A stretch of 64,000 bases of DNA from Escherichia coli (GTDB lineage: Bacteria > Pseudomonadota > Gammaproteobacteria > Enterobacterales > Enterobacteriaceae). Location: NCBI RefSeq assembly GCF_002854065.1, contig NZ_CP024147.1. The stretch is one strand, 5' to 3'. Positions 1 through 43,524 of this stretch are shown one piece after another. Positions within the stretch are counted from its first letter, which is position 1, and each line of letters begins with the position of its first letter. Made by a program: the position numbers and the translations under genes. The notes under the pieces are model-generated. The model saw only the letters and a list, made by a program, of their open reading frames with translations, had not been told where the DNA came from and made no database searches.

Positions 1-849
<849 letters not shown>

Positions 850-934
850 CCTTAAAGAAGCGTTCTTTGCAGTGCTCACACAGATTGTCTGATAGAAAGT
901 GAAAAGCAAGGCGTCTTGCGAAGCAGACTGATAC

Positions 935-1010
935 GTCCCCTTCGTCTAGAGGCCCAGGACACCGCCCTTTCACGGCGGTAACAGGGGTTCGAATCCCCTA
1001 GGGGACGCCA
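935..1010 (+). tRNA. gltV: tRNA-Glu (anticodon UUC) in the 16S-23S spacer
   Basis: GTCCCCTTCGTCTAGAGGCCCAGGACACCGCCCTTTCACGGCGGTAACAGGGGTTCGAATCCCCTAGGGGACGCCA, 76 nt cloverleaf with CCA end. Confidence 0.95.
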
Positions 1011-1203
1011 CTTGCTGGTTTGTGAGTGAAAGTCGCCGACCTTAATATCTCAAAACTCATCTTCGGGTGATGTTTGAGATATTTGCTCTTTAAAAATCTG
1101 GATCAAGCTGAAAATTGAAACACTGAACAACGAAAGTTGTTCGTGAGTCTCTCAAATTTTCGCAACACGATGATGAGTCGCAAGAAACATCTTCGGGTTG
1201 TGA

Positions 1204-4106
<2,903 letters not shown>

Positions 4107-4199
4107 ACAACGCCGAAGATGTTTTGGCGGATTGAGAGAAGATTTTCAGCCTGATACAGATTAAATCAGAACGCAGAAGCGGTCTGATAAAACAGAATT

Positions 4200-4319
4200 T
4201 GCCTGGCGGCCGTAGCGCGGTGGTCCCACCTGACCCCATGCCGAACTCAGAAGTGAAACGCCGTAGCGCCGATGGTAGTGTGGGGTCTCCCCATGCGAGA
4301 GTAGGGAACTGCCAGGCAT
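4200..4319 (+). rRNA. rrfE: 5S ribosomal RNA
   Basis: TGCCTGGCGGCCGTAGCGCGGTGGTCCCACCTGACCCCATGCCGAACTCAG...GGGAACTGCCAGGCAT, 120 nt. Confidence 0.95.
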
Positions 4320-9190: not shown

Positions 9191-9323
9191 GTAGGCCGGA
9201 TAAGGCATTTACGCCGCATCCGGCAATCGGTGCACGATGCCTGATGCGACGCTTGCGCGTCTTATCATGCCTACAACCGTTGCCGAACGTAGGCTGGATA
9301 AGGCGTTTACGCCGCATCCGGCA
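9191..9323. repeat. REP/BIME cluster in the aceA-aceK intergenic region
   Basis: Three REP units (GTAGGCCGGATAAGGCATTTACGCCGCATCCGGCA and inverted copies). Confidence 0.8.
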
Positions 9324-28582: not shown

Positions 28583-29086
28583 TTATTGATAGTGTTTTAT
28601 GTTCAGATAATGCCCGATGACTTTGTCATGCAGCTCCACCGATTTTGAGAACGACAGCGACTTCCGTCCCAGCCGTGCCAGGTGCTGCCTCAGATTCAGG
28701 TTATGCCGCTCAATTCGCTGCGTATATCGCTTGCTGATTACGTGCAGCTTTCCCTTCAGGCGGGATTCATACAGCGGCCAGCCATCCGTCATCCATATCA
28801 CCACGTCAAAGGGTGACAGCAGGCTCATAAGACGCCCCAGCGTCGCCATAGTGCGTTCACCGAATACGTGCGCAACAACCGTCTTCCGGAGCCTGTCATA
28901 CGCGTAAAACAGCCAGCGCTGGCGCGATTTAGCCCCGACGTATCCCCACTGTTCGTCCATTTCCGCGCAGACGATGACGTCACTGCCCGGCTGTATGCGC
29001 GAGGTTACCGACTGCGGCCTGAGTTTTTTAAATGGCGGAAAATCGTGTTGAGGCCAACGCCCATAATGCGGGCGGTTGCCCGGCAT
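28583..29086 (-). CDS. insB: IS1 InsB (transposase C-terminal part, expressed as InsAB' by -1 frameshift)
   Basis: 167 aa ORF matching IS1 InsB. Confidence 0.9.
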
Positions 29087-29280
29087 CCAACGCCATTCAT
29101 GGCCATATCAATGATTTTCTGGTGCGTACCGGGTTGAGAAGCGGTGTAAGTGAACTGCAGTTGCCATGTTTTACGGCAGTGAGAGCAGAGATAGCGCTGA
29201 TGTCCGGCAGTGCTTTTGCCGTTACGCACCACCCCGTCAGTAGCTGAACAGGAGGGACAGCTGATAGAAACAGAAGCCAC
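29005..29280 (-). CDS. insA: IS1 InsA (transposition repressor / transposase N-terminus)
   Basis: 91 aa, [40 protein letters not shown]... Confidence 0.9.
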
Positions 29281-29330
29281 TGGAGCACCTCAAAAACACC
29301 ATCATACACTAAATCAGTAAGTTGGCAGCA

Positions 29331-30029
29331 TCACCCGTTGGTGCTTTCCCAGCTTAATGCCGCTGAGGTGGTTTTTATCATGACTTCTGTTCGGTAGCCT
29401 GCATCTTTGAGTTTTTTTAATGTTTGTAGCGGCGTAGCGGCATTACGAAATGTTCCTTCGACAACAATATTGAGTTTATTGGCTATGGCCCTCTCTATTG
29501 CACGTTCGACCGTTTCGCCGGAAAATTTTGCCGTATGGGTAACAAAATCGTCGCCATAAGTTTGATATATATAATTAAAATCAGGGTGTAGAAATCTGAA
29601 ATCATCACCATTAATAATCATTATATTATTCTTTGTTTCCCTTTTTGCTAATTCGATTAGGGCGGATTTTCCGGCTCCTGGTTGTCCACCTAAAACAAAA
29701 CCAATGGGACTCTGCTGGGATGTGACGTCATGGTTTGTCAGACGCTGCCAAATAGAATCAAAAGACGCTTTATTTTCTGAATGCGCAGTATTATTAAATT
29801 CACGCTGATACTTTTTTCTGACCTGCTGGAGGCGTAACTTTTCCTGTGTAAAATCAACAAGTTCTGCTTGAGTGGAATAAAGATTGTCGCGATAGCTGAC
29901 TAATTGTGATAGCTCATCGTCTGAGTCCTGAACTTGTGAGGAAAAACAACTGTCGACGATATTTGATAAAAACGCGATGCACTGACTGGCGCCGTTTAAA
30001 AGTGCATCCTTTTCCATTAAAGTAGCCAT
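29331..30029 (-). CDS. Zeta-toxin-like P-loop kinase domain protein, reading frame runs into the IS1 end (probably C-terminally truncated)
   Basis: ORF 29331..30035 with likely ATG at 30029 preceded by AGGAG; Walker A GGQPGAGKS, then INGDDFR and VEGTFR motifs; AT-rich; stop codon lies inside IS1 terminal repeat. Confidence 0.55.
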   Translation of the reverse strand: MATLMEKDALLNGASQCIAFLSNIVDSCFSSQVQDSDDELSQLVSYRDNLYSTQAELVDFTQEKLRLQQVRKKYQREFNNTAHSENKASFDSIWQRLTNHDVTSQQSPIGFVLGGQPGAGKSALIELAKRETKNNIMIINGDDFRFLHPDFNYIYQTYGDDFVTHTAKFSGETVERAIERAIANKLNIVVEGTFRNAATPLQTLKKLKDAGYRTEVMIKTTSAALSWESTNG

Positions 30030-30173
30030 TAACACTCCTGTTAAATGATATTTTTCGGTGATTGTAATACTGTTCTACAGGAGTGATTTTGCTTTTCAGA
30101 TATTATTTAATCTATGTTTTCAGTGAGGATGGCGTATAACAATTGGTGAGCGTTATACGCCAGTAGGGAAATA

Positions 30174-31523
30174 TTACTCAAACAAATTAAAATGCAGCTT
30201 CTGCACCACCTGCTCGGCATCTTCGCCGGGTACCAGGAAGCACAGGTTATGGCTGGATGCGCCGTAACAAATCATGCGAATGTTGAACGGTTCCAGTACG
30301 CCGAATACCTCTTTGCCAACGCCGCAGGCTTTTGACAGGTCATTGCCAATCAACGCGACCAGCGCCAGACCTTCTTCCACCTCCACCCGGCACAGTGCGG
30401 AAAGCTCCATCAGCAGAGATTGCGTCAGCAACGTATCGCCAGTGGAGGTTGAACCGGTGGTATCAAGGGTTAATGCCACGCTCACTTCTGACGTGGTGAT
30501 TAAGTCTACCGAAATATTATGCCGCGCGAGGATGCCGAAAACTTCCGCGAGGAAACCGCGAGAATGCAGCATATTCAGGCTGTGCAAAGTGAGCAGAGTC
30601 TGATTGCGACGAAGCGCCAGCGCGCGGAACAGCGGCGGATTTTCAGTTTTATTGCACACCAGCGTACCACCTGCGCGTGGGTCTTTGCTGGAGCCGACAA
30701 AGACCGGGATATCGCTGCGTACTGCGGGTAGCAACGTTGCCGGATGCAGTACTTTTGCACCAAAAGTTGCCATCTCTGCCGCTTCGGCAAACGCGATTTC
30801 ATCAATGCGTTTTGCTGCGGAAACTACGCGTGGATCGGTGGTGTAGATGCCCGGGACGTCGGTCCAGATATCAACACGAGATGCGTGTAAAGCCTCCGCC
30901 AGCAAGGCTGCCGTATAATCGCTGCCTCCACGGCCAAGCGTCGTTGTACGACCTTTATTTTCGCTACCGATAAATCCCTGGGTGATCACTAAGCCTTCAT
31001 TGAGACGTGGGAGCAGCTGCAGCGCGGCCAGTTCCGCCAGCGCGGCTATATCTGGCTCTGCACGACCAAATCGGTCGTTGGTACGCATCACTTTACGTAC
31101 ATCAAACCACTGTGCCTGAACATCGCGTTCGCGCAGGATCTCAACAAACAGCAGGGTCGACATCAGCTCGCCGTGGCTGACCAGCTCATCTGTCAGCGCC
31201 GGAGACGTTGCCAGCGCCGCCGCTTCTGCCAGAACAGTAATGTTCTCCAGCAGACGTTCAATCTCTTCACGGATAACGTTCGGGTAACGCAGACGTTCCA
31301 GAATGGCAAACTGGATGTTGCGAATAGCGTCGAGTTTTTCGAATCGCTCGCCAGGTTCCAGTCCTTCAGCTAAAGCGACCAGCAGATTAGTGATACCAGC
31401 AGAAGCCGAGAGGACAACTAAACGCACGTTGGCATCAGAAAGCACAATATCAGCGCTGCGGTTCATGGCGTCAAAATCAGCTACGCTGGTACCGCCAAAT
31501 TTGGAGACAACAATTTCAGACAT
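30174..31523 (-). CDS. lysC: Lysine-sensitive aspartokinase III
   Basis: 449 aa, MSEIVVSKFGGTSVADFDAMNRSADIVL... Confidence 0.95.
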   Translation of the reverse strand: MSEIVVSKFGGTSVADFDAMNRSADIVLSDANVRLVVLSASAGITNLLVALAEGLEPGERFEKLDAIRNIQFAILERLRYPNVIREEIERLLENITVLAEAAALATSPALTDELVSHGELMSTLLFVEILRERDVQAQWFDVRKVMRTNDRFGRAEPDIAALAELAALQLLPRLNEGLVITQGFIGSENKGRTTTLGRGGSDYTAALLAEALHASRVDIWTDVPGIYTTDPRVVSAAKRIDEIAFAEAAEMATFGAKVLHPATLLPAVRSDIPVFVGSSKDPRAGGTLVCNKTENPPLFRALALRRNQTLLTLHSLNMLHSRGFLAEVFGILARHNISVDLITTSEVSVALTLDTTGSTSTGDTLLTQSLLMELSALCRVEVEEGLALVALIGNDLSKACGVGKEVFGVLEPFNIRMICYGASSHNLCFLVPGEDAEQVVQKLHFNLFE

Positions 31524-31830
31524 AACTACCTCGTGTCAGGGGATCCATTTTCAGCCTTGGCACAAGGGAAGAGCGGAAGACGGGTGGGCGCAGAGCGATA
31601 CTTCGCTACTATTTTCACCCAGAAGTGCTCCACCACTTGCGAAACGCCCGACTGCGAACGCTTCTGGTGACAACCCAGGGGATTCAGCCCCTGTAGCCGA
31701 TGATGAACGTGGCCAGCCGTTCAATCACCTCGGCGATGCACCCCCTCAGGTGTTATCACAGGACTGGCTCCTCCAACACCGTTACTTGGGCAACGCGCCT
31801 CTTCTGGCCTGCGCTAGCGCAGGTAGTACA
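31524..31830 (-). promoter_or_regulatory. lysC 5' leader containing the lysine riboswitch (L box)
   Basis: Long untranslated leader upstream of lysC; reverse complement contains GAAGAGGCGCGTTGCCCAAGTAACGGTGTTGGAGGAGCCAGTCCTGTGATAACACCTGAGGGGGTGCATCGCCGAGGTGATTGAACGGCTGG characteristic of the lysC leader. Confidence 0.75.
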
Positions 31831-32047
31831 TTTATAAATAAAGGGTGAGCGGGGCGGTTGTCAACGACGGGGTCATGCGGATTTTTCATCCACTCCTGGC
31901 GGTCAGTAGTTCAGCTAATAAATGCTTCACTGCGCTAAGGGTTTACACTCAACATTACGCTAACGGCACTAAAACCATCACATTTTTCTGTGACTGGCGC
32001 TACAATCTTCCAAAGTCACAATTCTCAAAATCAGAAGAGTATTGCTA

Positions 32048-33697
32048 ATGAAAAACATCAATCCAACGCAGACCGCTGCCTGGCAGGCACTACAGAAACA
32101 CTTCGATGAAATGAAAGACGTTACGATCGCCGATCTTTTTGCTAAAGATGGCGATCGTTTTTCTAAGTTCTCCGCAACCTTCGACGATCAGATGCTGGTG
32201 GATTACTCCAAAAACCGCATCACTGAAGAGACGCTGGCGAAATTACAAGATCTGGCGAAAGAGTGCGATCTGGCGGGCGCGATTAAGTCGATGTTCTCTG
32301 GCGAGAAGATCAACCGCACTGAAAACCGCGCCGTGCTGCACGTAGCGCTGCGTAATCGTAGCAATACCCCGATTCTGGTTGATGGCAAAGATGTTATGCC
32401 AGAAGTCAACGCGGTGCTGGAGAAGATGAAAACCTTCTCGGAAGCGATTATCTCCGGTGAGTGGAAGGGTTATACCGGCAAAGCAATCACCGACGTGGTG
32501 AACATCGGGATCGGCGGTTCTGACCTCGGCCCATACATGGTGACCGAAGCACTGCGTCCGTACAAAAATCACCTGAACATGCACTTTGTTTCTAACGTCG
32601 ATGGGACTCACATCGCTGAAGTGCTGAAAAAAGTAAACCCGGAAACCACGCTGTTCCTGGTAGCATCTAAAACCTTCACCACTCAGGAAACCATGACCAA
32701 CGCCCATAGCGCGCGTGACTGGTTCCTGAAAGCGGCAGGTGATGAAAAACACGTTGCGAAACACTTTGCGGCGCTCTCCACCAATGCCAAAGCCGTTGGC
32801 GAGTTTGGTATTGATACTGCCAACATGTTCGAGTTCTGGGACTGGGTCGGCGGTCGTTACTCTTTGTGGTCAGCGATTGGCCTGTCGATTGTTCTCTCCA
32901 TCGGCTTTGATAACTTCGTTGAACTGCTTTCTGGCGCACACGCGATGGACAAGCATTTCTCCACCACGCCTGCCGAGAAAAACCTGCCTGTACTGCTGGC
33001 GCTGATTGGCATCTGGTACAACAATTTCTTTGGTGCGGAAACTGAAGCGATTCTGCCGTATGACCAGTATATGCACCGTTTCGCGGCGTACTTCCAGCAG
33101 GGCAATATGGAGTCCAACGGTAAGTATGTTGACCGTAACGGTAACGTTGTGGATTACCAGACTGGCCCGATTATCTGGGGTGAACCAGGCACTAACGGTC
33201 AGCACGCGTTCTACCAGCTGATCCACCAGGGAACCAAAATGGTACCGTGCGATTTCATCGCCCCAGCTATCACCCATAACCCGCTCTCTGATCACCACCA
33301 GAAACTGCTGTCTAACTTCTTCGCCCAGACCGAAGCGCTGGCGTTTGGTAAATCCCGCGAAGTGGTTGAGCAGGAATATCGCGATCAGGGTAAAGATCCG
33401 GCAACGCTTGACTACGTGGTGCCGTTCAAAGTGTTCGAAGGTAACCGCCCGACCAACTCCATCCTGCTGCGTGAAATCACTCCGTTCAGCCTGGGTGCGT
33501 TGATTGCGCTGTATGAGCACAAAATCTTTACTCAGGGCGTGATCCTGAACATCTTCACCTTCGACCAGTGGGGCGTGGAACTGGGTAAACAGCTGGCGAA
33601 CCGTATTCTGCCAGAGCTGAAAGATGATAAAGAAATCAGCAGCCACGATAGCTCGACCAATGGTCTGATTAACCGCTATAAAGCGTGGCGCGGTTAA
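32048..33697 (+). CDS. pgi: Glucose-6-phosphate isomerase
   Basis: ORF 32042..33697; known start [19 protein letters not shown]; 549 aa. Confidence 0.95.
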
Positions 33698-33708: not shown

Positions 33709-33803
<95 letters not shown>

Positions 33804-34209
33804 GTCGATGCCGATATGTACATCGTATTCGGCAATTAATGCATAGCACGATTAATTAAATAACCTTAAAAACAATGCCGACTATAAGTCGGCATTGTTT
33901 TATCAGATAAATCCCCTTGTCTGTGATTTAACGGAAATCATACCGTGAGGTTAATCCTAAAATAGATTTTTAATCGTGATTGATTTCGGAAAATACTCAG
34001 ATTAATTACTTTTACTTTTATTTTAACACTATGATTTTTAATGTTATTTATATATAAGTTGTAGCTTATATTTGATATTCATTCCAATTATCCTAAAACC
34101 CCATCTCTAATTCCCCGCGCCGTAATTCGCATGCTTTAGTTGTGTATACTCGATCCCGCCCGAAATGTTTTTGGGTAAATCTCCATTCATTCAATGAAGG
34201 GAAATTGTT

Positions 34210-43379: not shown

Positions 43380-43410
43380 GGGGTTCTTCCTCATTCCAGG
43401 ACGGATAAGG

Positions 43411-43524
43411 CTTTCACGCCTTATCCGACAACAACTGCCTGATGCGACGCTGACGCGTCTTATCAGGCCTACATACGTTTCGGTTTTGTAGGTCGGACAA
43501 GGCGTTCACGCCGCATCCGGCATT
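43411..43524. repeat. REP/BIME cluster in the malE-malF intergenic region
   Basis: GGATAAGGC...GCCTGATGCGACGCTGACGCGTCTTATCAGGCCTACA...GCCGCATCCGGCA; classic malE-malF REP location. Confidence 0.8.

What the first reader, a model, noticed from the sequence alone, without database searches (positions are those of the whole stretch)
31524..31830. Long lysC leader carrying a lysine riboswitch
About 300 nt of non-coding leader precedes lysC on the minus strand, and its sequence is recognisable as the L-box riboswitch that controls lysC in response to lysine.
Basis: partly seen in the sequence, partly recalled or inferred. Interest (0 to 1): 0.2.

Follow-up and report, generated by a model that had tools for sequence, protein, structure and literature searches.

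The report
The known E. coli lysC lysine riboswitch

Summary
Confirmed, and already known. The minus strand of window 31615..31811 gives a full-length match to Rfam RF00168 (Lysine riboswitch): 99.5 bits against a gathering score of 30, E about 3e-25. It lies inside the 306-nt 5' UTR (31829..31524) of lysC (CDS 31523..30174).

The whole transcribed leader is identical to E. coli K-12 MG1655, the strain in which this riboswitch was characterised. It is present in 5425 of 5426 complete E. coli genomes, and RefSeq already annotates it as 'riboswitch'.

In 30 orthologous enterobacterial leaders, aptamer helices P2-P4 and the P2/P3 loop-loop contact show compensatory base changes. P1, P5 and the expression platform are almost invariant.

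Published work on the identical sequence shows that bound lysine stabilises P1. This frees a C-rich segment for RNase E and Rho, hides the Shine-Dalgarno sequence and shuts lysC off.

One side observation is more interesting. 31 of 77 related species, including Escherichia whittamii, most Citrobacter and the Enterobacter cloacae group, lack the aptamer block altogether. They keep the same promoter and the same Shine-Dalgarno hairpin.

The parts
31875..31889 (-). Conserved box ATGAAAAATCCGCAT (T-N11-A, -60..-46). Candidate binding site for a LysR-type regulator such as ArgP. This is inference only.
   Evidence: Nearly invariant in both riboswitch-bearing and riboswitch-less lysC promoters. Promoter-level lysine control of lysC is cited in PMC10946432. 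The ArgP assignment rests on background knowledge and was not tested.
31859..31864 (-). -35 hexamer TTGACA of the lysC promoter
   Evidence: Read from the sequence. Invariant in the 7-species alignment and in nearly all short-leader species. The consensus scan did not flag this promoter because the -10 is non-canonical.
31835..31841 (-). -10 region (TTATTTA, inside the conserved TTTATTTATAA)
   Evidence: Lies 17-18 nt from the -35 and ends 6-7 nt before the inferred TSS. Invariant across species. Exact hexamer not determined.
31829..31829 (-). Transcription start (+1, G), inferred
   Evidence: Derived from the published numbering in which G309 is the G of the AUG (PMC10946432). Checked against the sequence.
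31808..31823 (-). 5'-terminal GC hairpin (+7..+22, CCUGCGC-UAGC-GCGCAGG)
   Evidence: Predicted in the unconstrained fold. Role unknown.
31615..31811 (-). Lysine riboswitch aptamer (+19..+215), five-way junction P1-P5
   Evidence: RF00168, 99.5 bits, full model. 47 of 51 model pairs are canonical. Compensatory changes at 21 pairs in 30 orthologues.
31801..31806 (-). P1 5' strand CAGAAG (+24..+29)
   Evidence: Mapping of the Rfam structure. Invariant in 30 orthologues.
31620..31625 (-). P1 3' strand CUUCUG (+205..+210), the switching strand
   Evidence: Overlaps the 5' arm of the anti-sequestering helix.
31733..31796 (-). P2/P2b arm (+34..+97). Its loop GCCAGU (+62..+67) kisses the P3 loop.
   Evidence: 12 pairs with changes on both sides. 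Kissing loop tested.
31699..31729 (-). P3 hairpin (+101..+131). Loop GCUGGC (+113..+118).
   Evidence: (8 of 11 pairs covary).
31672..31698 (-). P4 hairpin (+132..+158)
   Evidence: 99.7% of cells paired.
31630..31670 (-). P5 (+160..+200), with an 18-nt insertion in its loop relative to the Rfam consensus
   Evidence: The P5 loop is the site of larger insertions in other genera.
31616..31640 (-). 5' arm of the anti-sequestering ('anti-P1') helix (+190..+214). Overlaps the P5 and P1 3' strands.
   Evidence: Ligand-free folds. 17 canonical pairs. 95.8% paired in orthologues against 46-70% when slid, but no compensatory changes.
31562..31586 (-). 3' arm of the anti-sequestering helix (+244..+268)
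31560..31599 (-). C-rich, G-poor segment (+231..+270; 50% C, 17% G). Published rut site and RNase E target region.
   Evidence: Composition. Published rut site at about +240 (PMC10946432).
31577..31580 (-). RNase E 'Site1' UCUU (+250..+253)
   Evidence: Positions from PMC10946432. The sequence here is identical to MG1655.
31561..31567 (-). 5' arm of the SD-sequestering hairpin, CCUUGUG (+263..+269)
   Evidence: 97% paired in orthologues but invariant. Retained in riboswitch-less leaders.
31529..31535 (-). 3' arm of the SD-sequestering hairpin, CACGAGG (+295..+301). Contains the Shine-Dalgarno GAGG at 31529..31532.
31521..31523 (-). lysC start codon AUG (+307..+309). G309 is the published RNAP pause and Rho/NusG termination point.
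   Evidence: PMC10946432.
30174..31523 (-). lysC CDS, lysine-sensitive aspartokinase III (449 aa)
   Evidence: Pfam AA_kinase 4e-46 plus ACT domains. RefSeq annotation.

Best explanation
The interval is the 5' UTR of the E. coli lysC mRNA and carries the known lysine riboswitch. Shown here: a complete five-helix lysine aptamer at +19..+215, followed by a 91-nt expression platform containing a C-rich stretch, a Shine-Dalgarno (SD) hairpin and the start codon. Mechanism, taken from experiments on the identical MG1655 sequence and mapped onto this sequence: without lysine, the 3' strands of P5 and P1 (+190..+214) pair with +244..+268. This 'anti-P1' or anti-sequestering helix buries the C-rich segment and ties up CCUUGUG (+263..+269), so the SD is free and lysC is translated. 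When lysine binds, P1 to P5 lock and +244..+268 is released. CCUUGUG then pairs with CACGAGG (+295..+301) and hides the SD. The exposed C-rich segment is cut by RNase E (Site1, +250..+253) and serves as a rut site for Rho, which terminates at the G309 pause and further into the ORF. The result is threefold repression of aspartokinase III synthesis by its pathway end product, on top of lysine control at the promoter.
For: The aptamer is a full-length RF00168 hit: 99.5 bits against gathering 30, E 3e-25. 47 of 51 model pairs are canonical, giving P1 to P5. The transcribed leader is 100% identical to K-12 MG1655. The only intergenic difference is G for A at 31868, upstream of the -35. The leader is present in 5425 of 5426 complete E. 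coli genomes, 5413 of them at 99% identity or more, and RefSeq annotates it as a riboswitch. In 30 orthologues of 73-93% identity, 92.3% of aptamer and hairpin cells pair, against 40-48% when partners are slid. 21 pairs and 118 cells show changes on both sides, and 0 of 500 shuffles reach these values. The P2-P3 kissing loop is 78.9% paired against 11-42% slid, with 3 of 6 pairs compensatory. The published numbering fits exactly: AUG at +307..309, 50% C and 17% G at +231..270, UCUU at +250..253. Folding shows that +263..269 pairs with +190..197 when the aptamer is unconstrained and shifts toward +295..301 when P5 is enforced. The leader is 95% identical between E. coli and E. albertii, while third-codon positions of the adjacent lysC are only 62% identical. 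That contrast indicates strong selection on the RNA. The experimental mechanism comes from PMC10946432. An independent class-wide covariation model is reported to match the E. coli lysC aptamer-platform overlap (PMC13273304).
Against: Nothing contradicts the assignment, but there are limits. Thermodynamic modelling gives only a small difference in SD accessibility between the modelled OFF and ON states (P unpaired 0.33 against 0.40). Single MFE structures were unstable. Both platform helices, P1 and P5 are nearly invariant, so covariation can neither prove nor disprove them. The TSS is inferred from published numbering, and the consensus promoter scan did not flag the lysC promoter. Lysine binding itself cannot be tested with these tools. 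The primary paper (Caron et al. 2012) was not available and is cited only through the 2024 paper.
Confidence: 0.97

Rival explanations
1. A Bacillus-type L-box: lysine binding induces an intrinsic (Rho-independent) terminator in the leader, so control is purely by transcription attenuation.
For: This is the classical mechanism for lysC in Bacillus subtilis (background knowledge; referred to in PMC13273304). The aptamer class is the same.
Against: No terminator-like hairpin followed by a U-run exists on the minus strand between the aptamer and the AUG. The only minus-strand candidate, at 32078..32064, lies upstream of the promoter. The platform instead contains an SD-pairing hairpin and a C-rich rut-like stretch. 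Published in vitro transcription gives full-length product unless Rho and NusG are added.
Confidence: 0.01
2. A decayed or inactive aptamer remnant: the sequence resembles a lysine riboswitch but no longer regulates in this strain, and lysine control is exerted only at the promoter (for example by ArgP).
For: Promoter-level lysine control of lysC exists (cited). 31 related species manage without the aptamer. There is one SNP near the promoter.
Against: The transcribed leader is identical to the experimentally active MG1655 leader. All model positions are matched at 99.5 bits. The leader is far more conserved than neighbouring synonymous sites and is fixed in E. coli.
Confidence: 0.01
3. The leader encodes a small regulatory peptide or an antisense product. 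Mechanical ORFs exist at 31724..31551 (-), 57 aa with a TTG start, and at 31303..31848 (+), 181 aa.
For: These ORFs appear in the six-frame list.
Against: Orthologous leaders differ by many indels that are not multiples of three: 1-2 nt gaps and insertions of 20-160 nt within these frames. Conservation follows RNA helices with compensatory changes rather than codon positions. RefSeq annotates no CDS there.
Confidence: 0.01

Closest known systems
E. coli K-12 lysC lysine riboswitch (Rfam RF00168; 'dual-acting' riboswitch of Caron et al. 2012; Rho control described by Ghosh et al. 2024, PMC10946432)
   Same: Identical nucleotide sequence from the TSS to the start codon and beyond. Same gene, same neighbour (pgi) and same promoter. 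All published landmarks map exactly: G309/AUG, the C-rich rut at about +240, and Site1 at +250..253.
   Different: One base upstream of the -35 differs (window 31868, G instead of A). The genomic context downstream of lysC also differs: a zeta-toxin gene fragment plus IS1 instead of yjbD directly. Neither difference touches the riboswitch.
Bacillus subtilis lysC L-box (the transcriptional lysine riboswitch)
   Same: Same aptamer class: a five-helix junction with a P2-P3 loop-loop contact. Same ligand, and the same regulated enzyme type (aspartokinase).
   Different: The expression platform differs. The B. subtilis element uses an intrinsic terminator and anti-terminator. The E. coli element has no terminator and uses SD sequestration, RNase E and Rho. 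Its anti-sequestering helix also invades further into the aptamer, reaching the P5 3' strand.
Other E. coli riboswitches that combine translational control with Rho termination (thiC, thiM, ribB, btuB)
   Same: Translational OFF switches in long 5' UTRs, with Rho-dependent termination early in the ORF (PMC10946432).
   Different: Different ligands and aptamer folds. For thiM and btuB, mRNA decay is described as a consequence of translational block. For lysC, the RNase E site is directly unmasked by the switch.

Membership tests
Lysine riboswitch (L-box, Rfam RF00168) | Full-length match to the family covariance model above the curated gathering score | tested here: met
   99.5 bits against 30, E 3.1e-25 (64-kb search) and 3.3e-27 (701-nt search), model 1-182 of 182, not truncated.
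Lysine riboswitch (L-box, Rfam RF00168) | Five helices (P1 to P5) around a central junction | tested here: met
   All six model helix segments map: P1, P2, P2b, P3, P4 and P5. 47 of 51 pairs are canonical.
Lysine riboswitch (L-box, Rfam RF00168) | Helices maintained by compensatory substitutions in orthologues | tested here: met
   P2, P2b, P3 and P4 contribute 21 pairs with changes on both sides, 0 of 500 shuffles reach this, and slid controls pair at 40-48%. P1 and P5 are invariant, so they are neither supported nor contradicted.
Lysine riboswitch (L-box, Rfam RF00168) | Tertiary loop-loop (kissing) contact between the P2 and P3 terminal loops | tested here: met
   GCCAGU (+62..67) pairs with GCUGGC (+113..118). 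78.9% paired against 11-42% when slid. G:C to A:U swaps in 9 sequences and A:U to G:C in 1. The two outermost of the six pairs are weak.
Lysine riboswitch (L-box, Rfam RF00168) | Conserved junction/core nucleotides (AGAGGNGC at J1/2, GCCGA, CUGUCA, GGAG before the P1 3' strand) | tested here: met
   All match the model consensus in the cmscan alignment. They are invariant or nearly invariant in 30 orthologues.
Lysine riboswitch (L-box, Rfam RF00168) | Located in the 5' UTR, on the same strand, of a lysine biosynthesis or transport gene | tested here: met
   The aptamer ends 91 nt before the AUG of lysC, which encodes aspartokinase III (AA_kinase plus ACT domains). RefSeq annotation agrees.
Lysine riboswitch (L-box, Rfam RF00168) | Direct and specific binding of L-lysine by the RNA | not testable with these tools
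   Rests on published work with the identical MG1655 sequence, cited in PMC10946432. The primary papers were not available.
E. coli-type translational / RNase E / Rho expression platform | Mutually exclusive anti-sequestering and SD-sequestering helices | tested here: inconclusive
   Both helices can form with canonical pairs and compete for +263..269 in ensemble folding. The predicted change in SD accessibility is small, and both helices are sequence-invariant across orthologues. Experimental support exists in the literature.
E. coli-type translational / RNase E / Rho expression platform | C-rich, G-poor rut segment overlapping the RNase E site, and no intrinsic terminator | tested here: met
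   50% C and 17% G at +231..270. UCUU at +250..253, identical to the published Site1. No terminator-like site in the leader.

The most novel reading that the evidence does not exclude
The element in the window is not novel. The most novel reading my evidence leaves open concerns its evolution. The aptamer plus anti-sequestering block (E. coli +23 to about +250) may behave as a discrete module that has been lost, or gained, at the same junctions in many Enterobacteriaceae, even within the genus Escherichia. What stays behind is an older core made of the lysC promoter (with a conserved T-N11-A box) and the SD-sequestering hairpin. Riboswitch-less species would then run lysC from a constitutively SD-masked mRNA, with lysine control exerted only at the promoter.
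Probability: 0.3. Interest if true: 0.45.

Novelty: already known. Interest (0 to 1): 0.1.

Why it matters
For the window itself it matters only as correct annotation. lysC here is under the textbook lysine riboswitch, and nothing about this copy is unusual. The element is of general interest as the model for a riboswitch that couples one ligand-binding event to three outputs: translation, RNase E decay and Rho termination. It is also a target of antibacterial lysine analogues such as AEC. The side observation that close relatives dispense with the aptamer while keeping the promoter and the SD hairpin could, if followed up, offer a natural experiment on what the riboswitch adds to promoter-level control.

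Tried and rejected
1. Unconstrained MFE folding of +1..+335 did not reproduce the aptamer. This is expected for a fold stabilised by ligand and tertiary contacts, so I imposed the Rfam structure instead.
2. Constrained single MFE structures of the platform changed with small changes of boundaries. I replaced them with ensemble accessibilities, which reproduce the topology of the published switch but only a weak effect size. I do not present folding as proof of mechanism.
3. The sigma-70 consensus scan did not flag the lysC promoter. The promoter assignment rests on the invariant TTGACA and TTTATTTATAA, plus the published +1.
4. A first alignment of all 77 orthologous upstream regions was uninterpretable (963 columns). 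BLAST showed that 31 of them simply lack the riboswitch, so I analysed the two groups separately.
5. My first hand-indexed anti-sequestering pairs were off by one and gave non-canonical pairs. I corrected them before use.
6. I tested whether the short leader of E. whittamii is a recombinant, Citrobacter-derived segment. A sliding-window comparison looked like a breakpoint. But lysC is about 84-85% identical among all three Escherichia species, and the pgi fragment is simply more constrained. The breakpoint is therefore not evidence of transfer, and the question stays open.
7. I looked for covariation in the two platform helices and found none, because the sequences are invariant.
8. Caron et al. 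2012, Rodionov et al. 2003 and Marbaniang & Gowrishankar 2011 are not held. They are cited only through papers I could read, or marked as background knowledge.
9. Literature searches for riboswitch-less enterobacterial lysC found nothing in the held library. That is absence of evidence, not evidence of novelty.

Full report
OBSERVATION. On the minus strand, the lysC ORF runs from 31523 to 30174 (449 aa). Its product has the amino-acid kinase domain and ACT domains expected of aspartokinase III. The divergently transcribed pgi gene starts at 32048, so 524 nt separate the two genes. A scan of the whole 64-kb window against Rfam 15 at gathering thresholds finds one riboswitch: RF00168 (Lysine) at 31811..31615, minus strand. 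It scores 99.5 bits against a gathering score of 30, with E = 3.1e-25 and model positions 1-182 of 182. A more permissive scan of 31400..32100 finds the same single hit at E = 3.3e-27 and nothing else.

IDENTITY. The 661 nt around the leader are found in 5425 of 5426 complete E. coli genomes, 5413 of them at 99% identity or more. RefSeq labels the same bases 'riboswitch' between lysC and pgi. Aligned with K-12 MG1655, the 548 nt from the pgi start to lysC codon 8 differ at one position: window 31868, G instead of A, four bases upstream of the -35 hexamer. The transcribed leader is identical. Experiments done in MG1655 therefore apply to this sequence without extrapolation.

COORDINATES. Ghosh et al. 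2024 (PMC10946432) number from the transcription start and state that G309 coincides with the AUG start codon. That places +1 at window 31829 (position n = 31830 - n), and the 5' UTR is 306 nt. The numbering checks out: A307-U308-G309 is the start codon, GAGG at +298..301 is the Shine-Dalgarno (SD) sequence, and the 30-nt windows from +231 to +270 are 50% C and 17% G. This matches the published C-rich rut region 'around position 240'. The published RNase E Site1, positions 250-253, is UCUU at window 31580..31577. Upstream lie an invariant TTGACA (31864..31859) and TTTATTTATAA covering the -10 region. The generic promoter scan did not flag them, because the -10 is non-canonical.

ANATOMY OF THE APTAMER. 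I projected the Rfam consensus structure onto the sequence, which gives:
- P1: +24-29 with +205-210
- P2: +34-42 with +89-97
- P2b: +49-56 with +75-82
- P3: +101-112 with +121-131
- P4: +132-142 with +149-158
- P5: +160-166 with +194-200
47 of the 51 model pairs are canonical. The P5 loop carries an 18-nt insertion relative to the consensus.

COMPARATIVE TEST. I retrieved 80 lysC loci from different species through the LysC protein (84-99% amino-acid identity), so the choice was blind to the leader. 46 of the 77 loci with enough upstream sequence have the aptamer. I aligned 30 non-redundant leaders of 73-93% identity (A3). On this alignment the Rfam helices plus the SD hairpin are 92.3% paired, against 40-48% when the 3' partners are slid by 1-3 columns. 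21 pairs and 118 cells show changes on both sides, and 0 of 500 column shuffles reach the observed values. The compensatory changes sit in P2, P2b, P3 and P4. P1 and P5 never vary. The P2-loop/P3-loop kissing contact is a pseudoknot that the covariance model cannot score. It is 78.9% paired against 11-42% when slid, with G:C to A:U swaps in nine sequences and one A:U to G:C swap. A further sign of selection on the RNA: the E. coli and E. albertii leaders are 95% identical from +22 onward, while third-codon positions of the adjacent lysC are only 62% identical.

MECHANISM. There is no terminator-like hairpin with a U-run on the minus strand anywhere in the leader, so the Bacillus-type attenuation mechanism does not apply. 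Folding shows a three-way competition around CCUUGUG (+263..269):
- With no constraint, or with P1 and P5 released, CCUUGUG pairs with +190..197 as part of a long helix, +190..214 with +244..268. That helix also buries the C-rich segment.
- When P5 is held closed, CCUUGUG shifts to CACGAGG (+295..301), which contains the SD.
This is the topology of the published model. In the ON state an anti-P1, anti-sequestering stem keeps the SD free and hides the RNase E and rut region. In the OFF state lysine locks P1, the SD is sequestered, RNase E cuts the exposed sites, and Rho (with NusG) terminates at the G309 pause and further into the ORF (PMC10946432). A 2026 class-wide covariation study reports that its aptamer-platform overlap covers more of the aptamer than the B. 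subtilis lysC model does, and that it matches the E. coli lysC variant (PMC13273304). That agrees with the helix reaching into the P5 3' strand.

I mark these steps as follows:
- Shown here: the aptamer, its covariation, the landmarks and the possibility of both alternative helices.
- Taken from the literature on the identical sequence: lysine binding and the effects on translation, RNase E and Rho.
- Weak in my own analysis: the magnitude of the switch (SD unpaired probability 0.33 against 0.40 in the two modelled states), and covariation in the platform, which is absent because both helices are almost invariant (96-97% paired).

COMPARISON AND NOVELTY. This is the E. coli lysC lysine riboswitch itself, neither a relative nor a variant. 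It belongs to RF00168 by every testable criterion (see the membership table). It differs from the Bacillus L-box only in the already-described expression platform. Novelty: already known.

SIDE OBSERVATION. 31 of the 77 orthologous loci have no lysine-riboswitch hit within 900 nt upstream of lysC at the gathering threshold, while all 9 positive controls scored 74-100 bits. They include Escherichia whittamii, Escherichia sp. E1V33, Citrobacter amalonaticus, youngae, werkmanii, braakii and gillenii, the Enterobacter cloacae group, Lelliottia, Trabulsiella, Pluralibacter, Atlantibacter and others.

Alignment shows that these species keep the same promoter, including a nearly invariant box TGAAAAATCCGCAT (T-N11-A; E. 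coli -60..-46), TTGACA and TTTATTTATAA. They also keep the 3' end of the leader, C(Y)UUGUGCCA(W)GG ... CCCUGACACGAGGU.GUUAUG. The block corresponding to E. coli +23 to about +250 is missing, which leaves a 5' UTR of about 77 nt. The RNAalifold consensus of 30 such leaders is exactly the SD hairpin. The SD is predicted to be paired in every one of them, with unpaired probability 0.00-0.25.

I could not tell whether this pattern reflects one deletion spread by recombination, repeated loss, or gain. An apparent recombination breakpoint in E. whittamii disappeared once I saw that lysC is about 84-85% identical among all three Escherichia species. I found no description of this in the held literature, but the key early comparative paper (Rodionov et al. 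2003) was not available, so I make no claim of novelty.

The P5 loop and the 5' edge of the aptamer are also insertion hot spots. There is an 87-nt insertion before P1 in E. albertii, about 40 extra nt in the P5 of Klebsiella, and an ERIC-like element of about 130 nt inside P5 in Buttiauxella and Cedecea.

Noticed in passing
Loci L005, L006, L008, L010, L012-L019, L021, L022, L035, L045, L046, L048, L049, L052, L063, L069-L071, L073, L074, L076, L077, L079, L081, L082 (upstream of lysC, about 720-900): 31 of 77 enterobacterial lysC orthologues have no lysine riboswitch. They include Escherichia whittamii, Escherichia sp. E1V33, most Citrobacter and the Enterobacter cloacae group. There is no RF00168 hit at the gathering threshold, while 9 of 9 positive controls hit. 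Relative to E. coli, the block +23 to about +250 is missing at the same junctions, leaving a leader of about 77 nt. I found nothing on this in the held literature.
   Followed up: partly
Same short-leader loci, about 850-900; corresponds to window 31561..31567 and 31529..31535: The riboswitch-less leaders keep the SD-sequestering hairpin CYUUGUG:CACGAGG but have no anti-sequestering partner. It is the only RNAalifold consensus helix. The SD is predicted to be paired in all 30 sequences, with P(unpaired) 0.00-0.25. This implies either constitutive damping of translation or an unknown way of opening the hairpin.
   Followed up: partly
window 31875..31889 (-), -60..-46 of the lysC promoter: The box ATGAAAAATCCGCAT (T-N11-A, the LysR-type motif shape) is nearly invariant in both the long-leader and short-leader species. 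It is a candidate ArgP site for the published promoter-level lysine control. That assignment is inference from background knowledge, and the relevant paper was not available.
   Followed up: no
window 28583..30035: Directly downstream of lysC, this strain has a truncated zeta-toxin family ORF where K-12 and O157 have yjbD (29331..30035, minus strand; Pfam PF06414, 1.7e-32, covering only profile positions 10-140 of 199). It abuts an IS1 element (insA/insB-like ORFs, 28583..29280). The arrangement is covered at 80% or more in only 1 of 5426 complete E. coli genomes, strain CUWW06.
   Followed up: partly
L007 (E. albertii) about 530-616; L066 and other Klebsiella/Raoultella loci; L051 and L072 about 640-760: There are insertion hot spots at the edges of the aptamer. 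E. albertii has an 87-nt insertion between the 5' hairpin and P1. Klebsiella and Raoultella have about 40 extra nt in P5 and about 90 extra nt in the platform. Buttiauxella and Cedecea have an ERIC-like repeat inside the P5 loop (17-19 of 22 matches to both ERIC primer sites), which puts the P5 strands about 160 nt apart against 38 nt in E. coli. ERIC-like copies also replace the upstream promoter region in L012, L018, L019 and L071.
   Followed up: partly
window 31868: This is the single difference from K-12 MG1655 in the whole pgi-lysC intergenic region: G instead of A (minus strand), 4 nt upstream of the -35 hexamer. It is shared with O157:H7, O145, O111 and O26 strains, which match the window 100%.
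   Followed up: no
lysC CDS, window 30174..31523, compared with L005-L007: lysC is unusually divergent at synonymous sites within the genus Escherichia: 84-85% nucleotide identity and about 60% at third codon positions, against 95-96% protein identity. The adjacent pgi 5' fragment is 96-97% identical and the riboswitch leader is 95% identical.
   Followed up: partly
window 1..4317; 9194..9271; 33727..33798; 43399..43469; 33864..34013: Other Rfam hits in the window: the end of an rRNA operon (partial 16S, a tRNA, StyR-44, 23S, 5S); three naRNA4/CssrE-type repeats, one just after pgi; and STnc430 between pgi and the yjbE-like ORF.
   Followed up: no
E. coli genome search: One of 5426 complete E. 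coli genomes has no match to the lysC leader, one genome has two copies, and one copy lies on a plasmid. I did not examine these.
   Followed up: no
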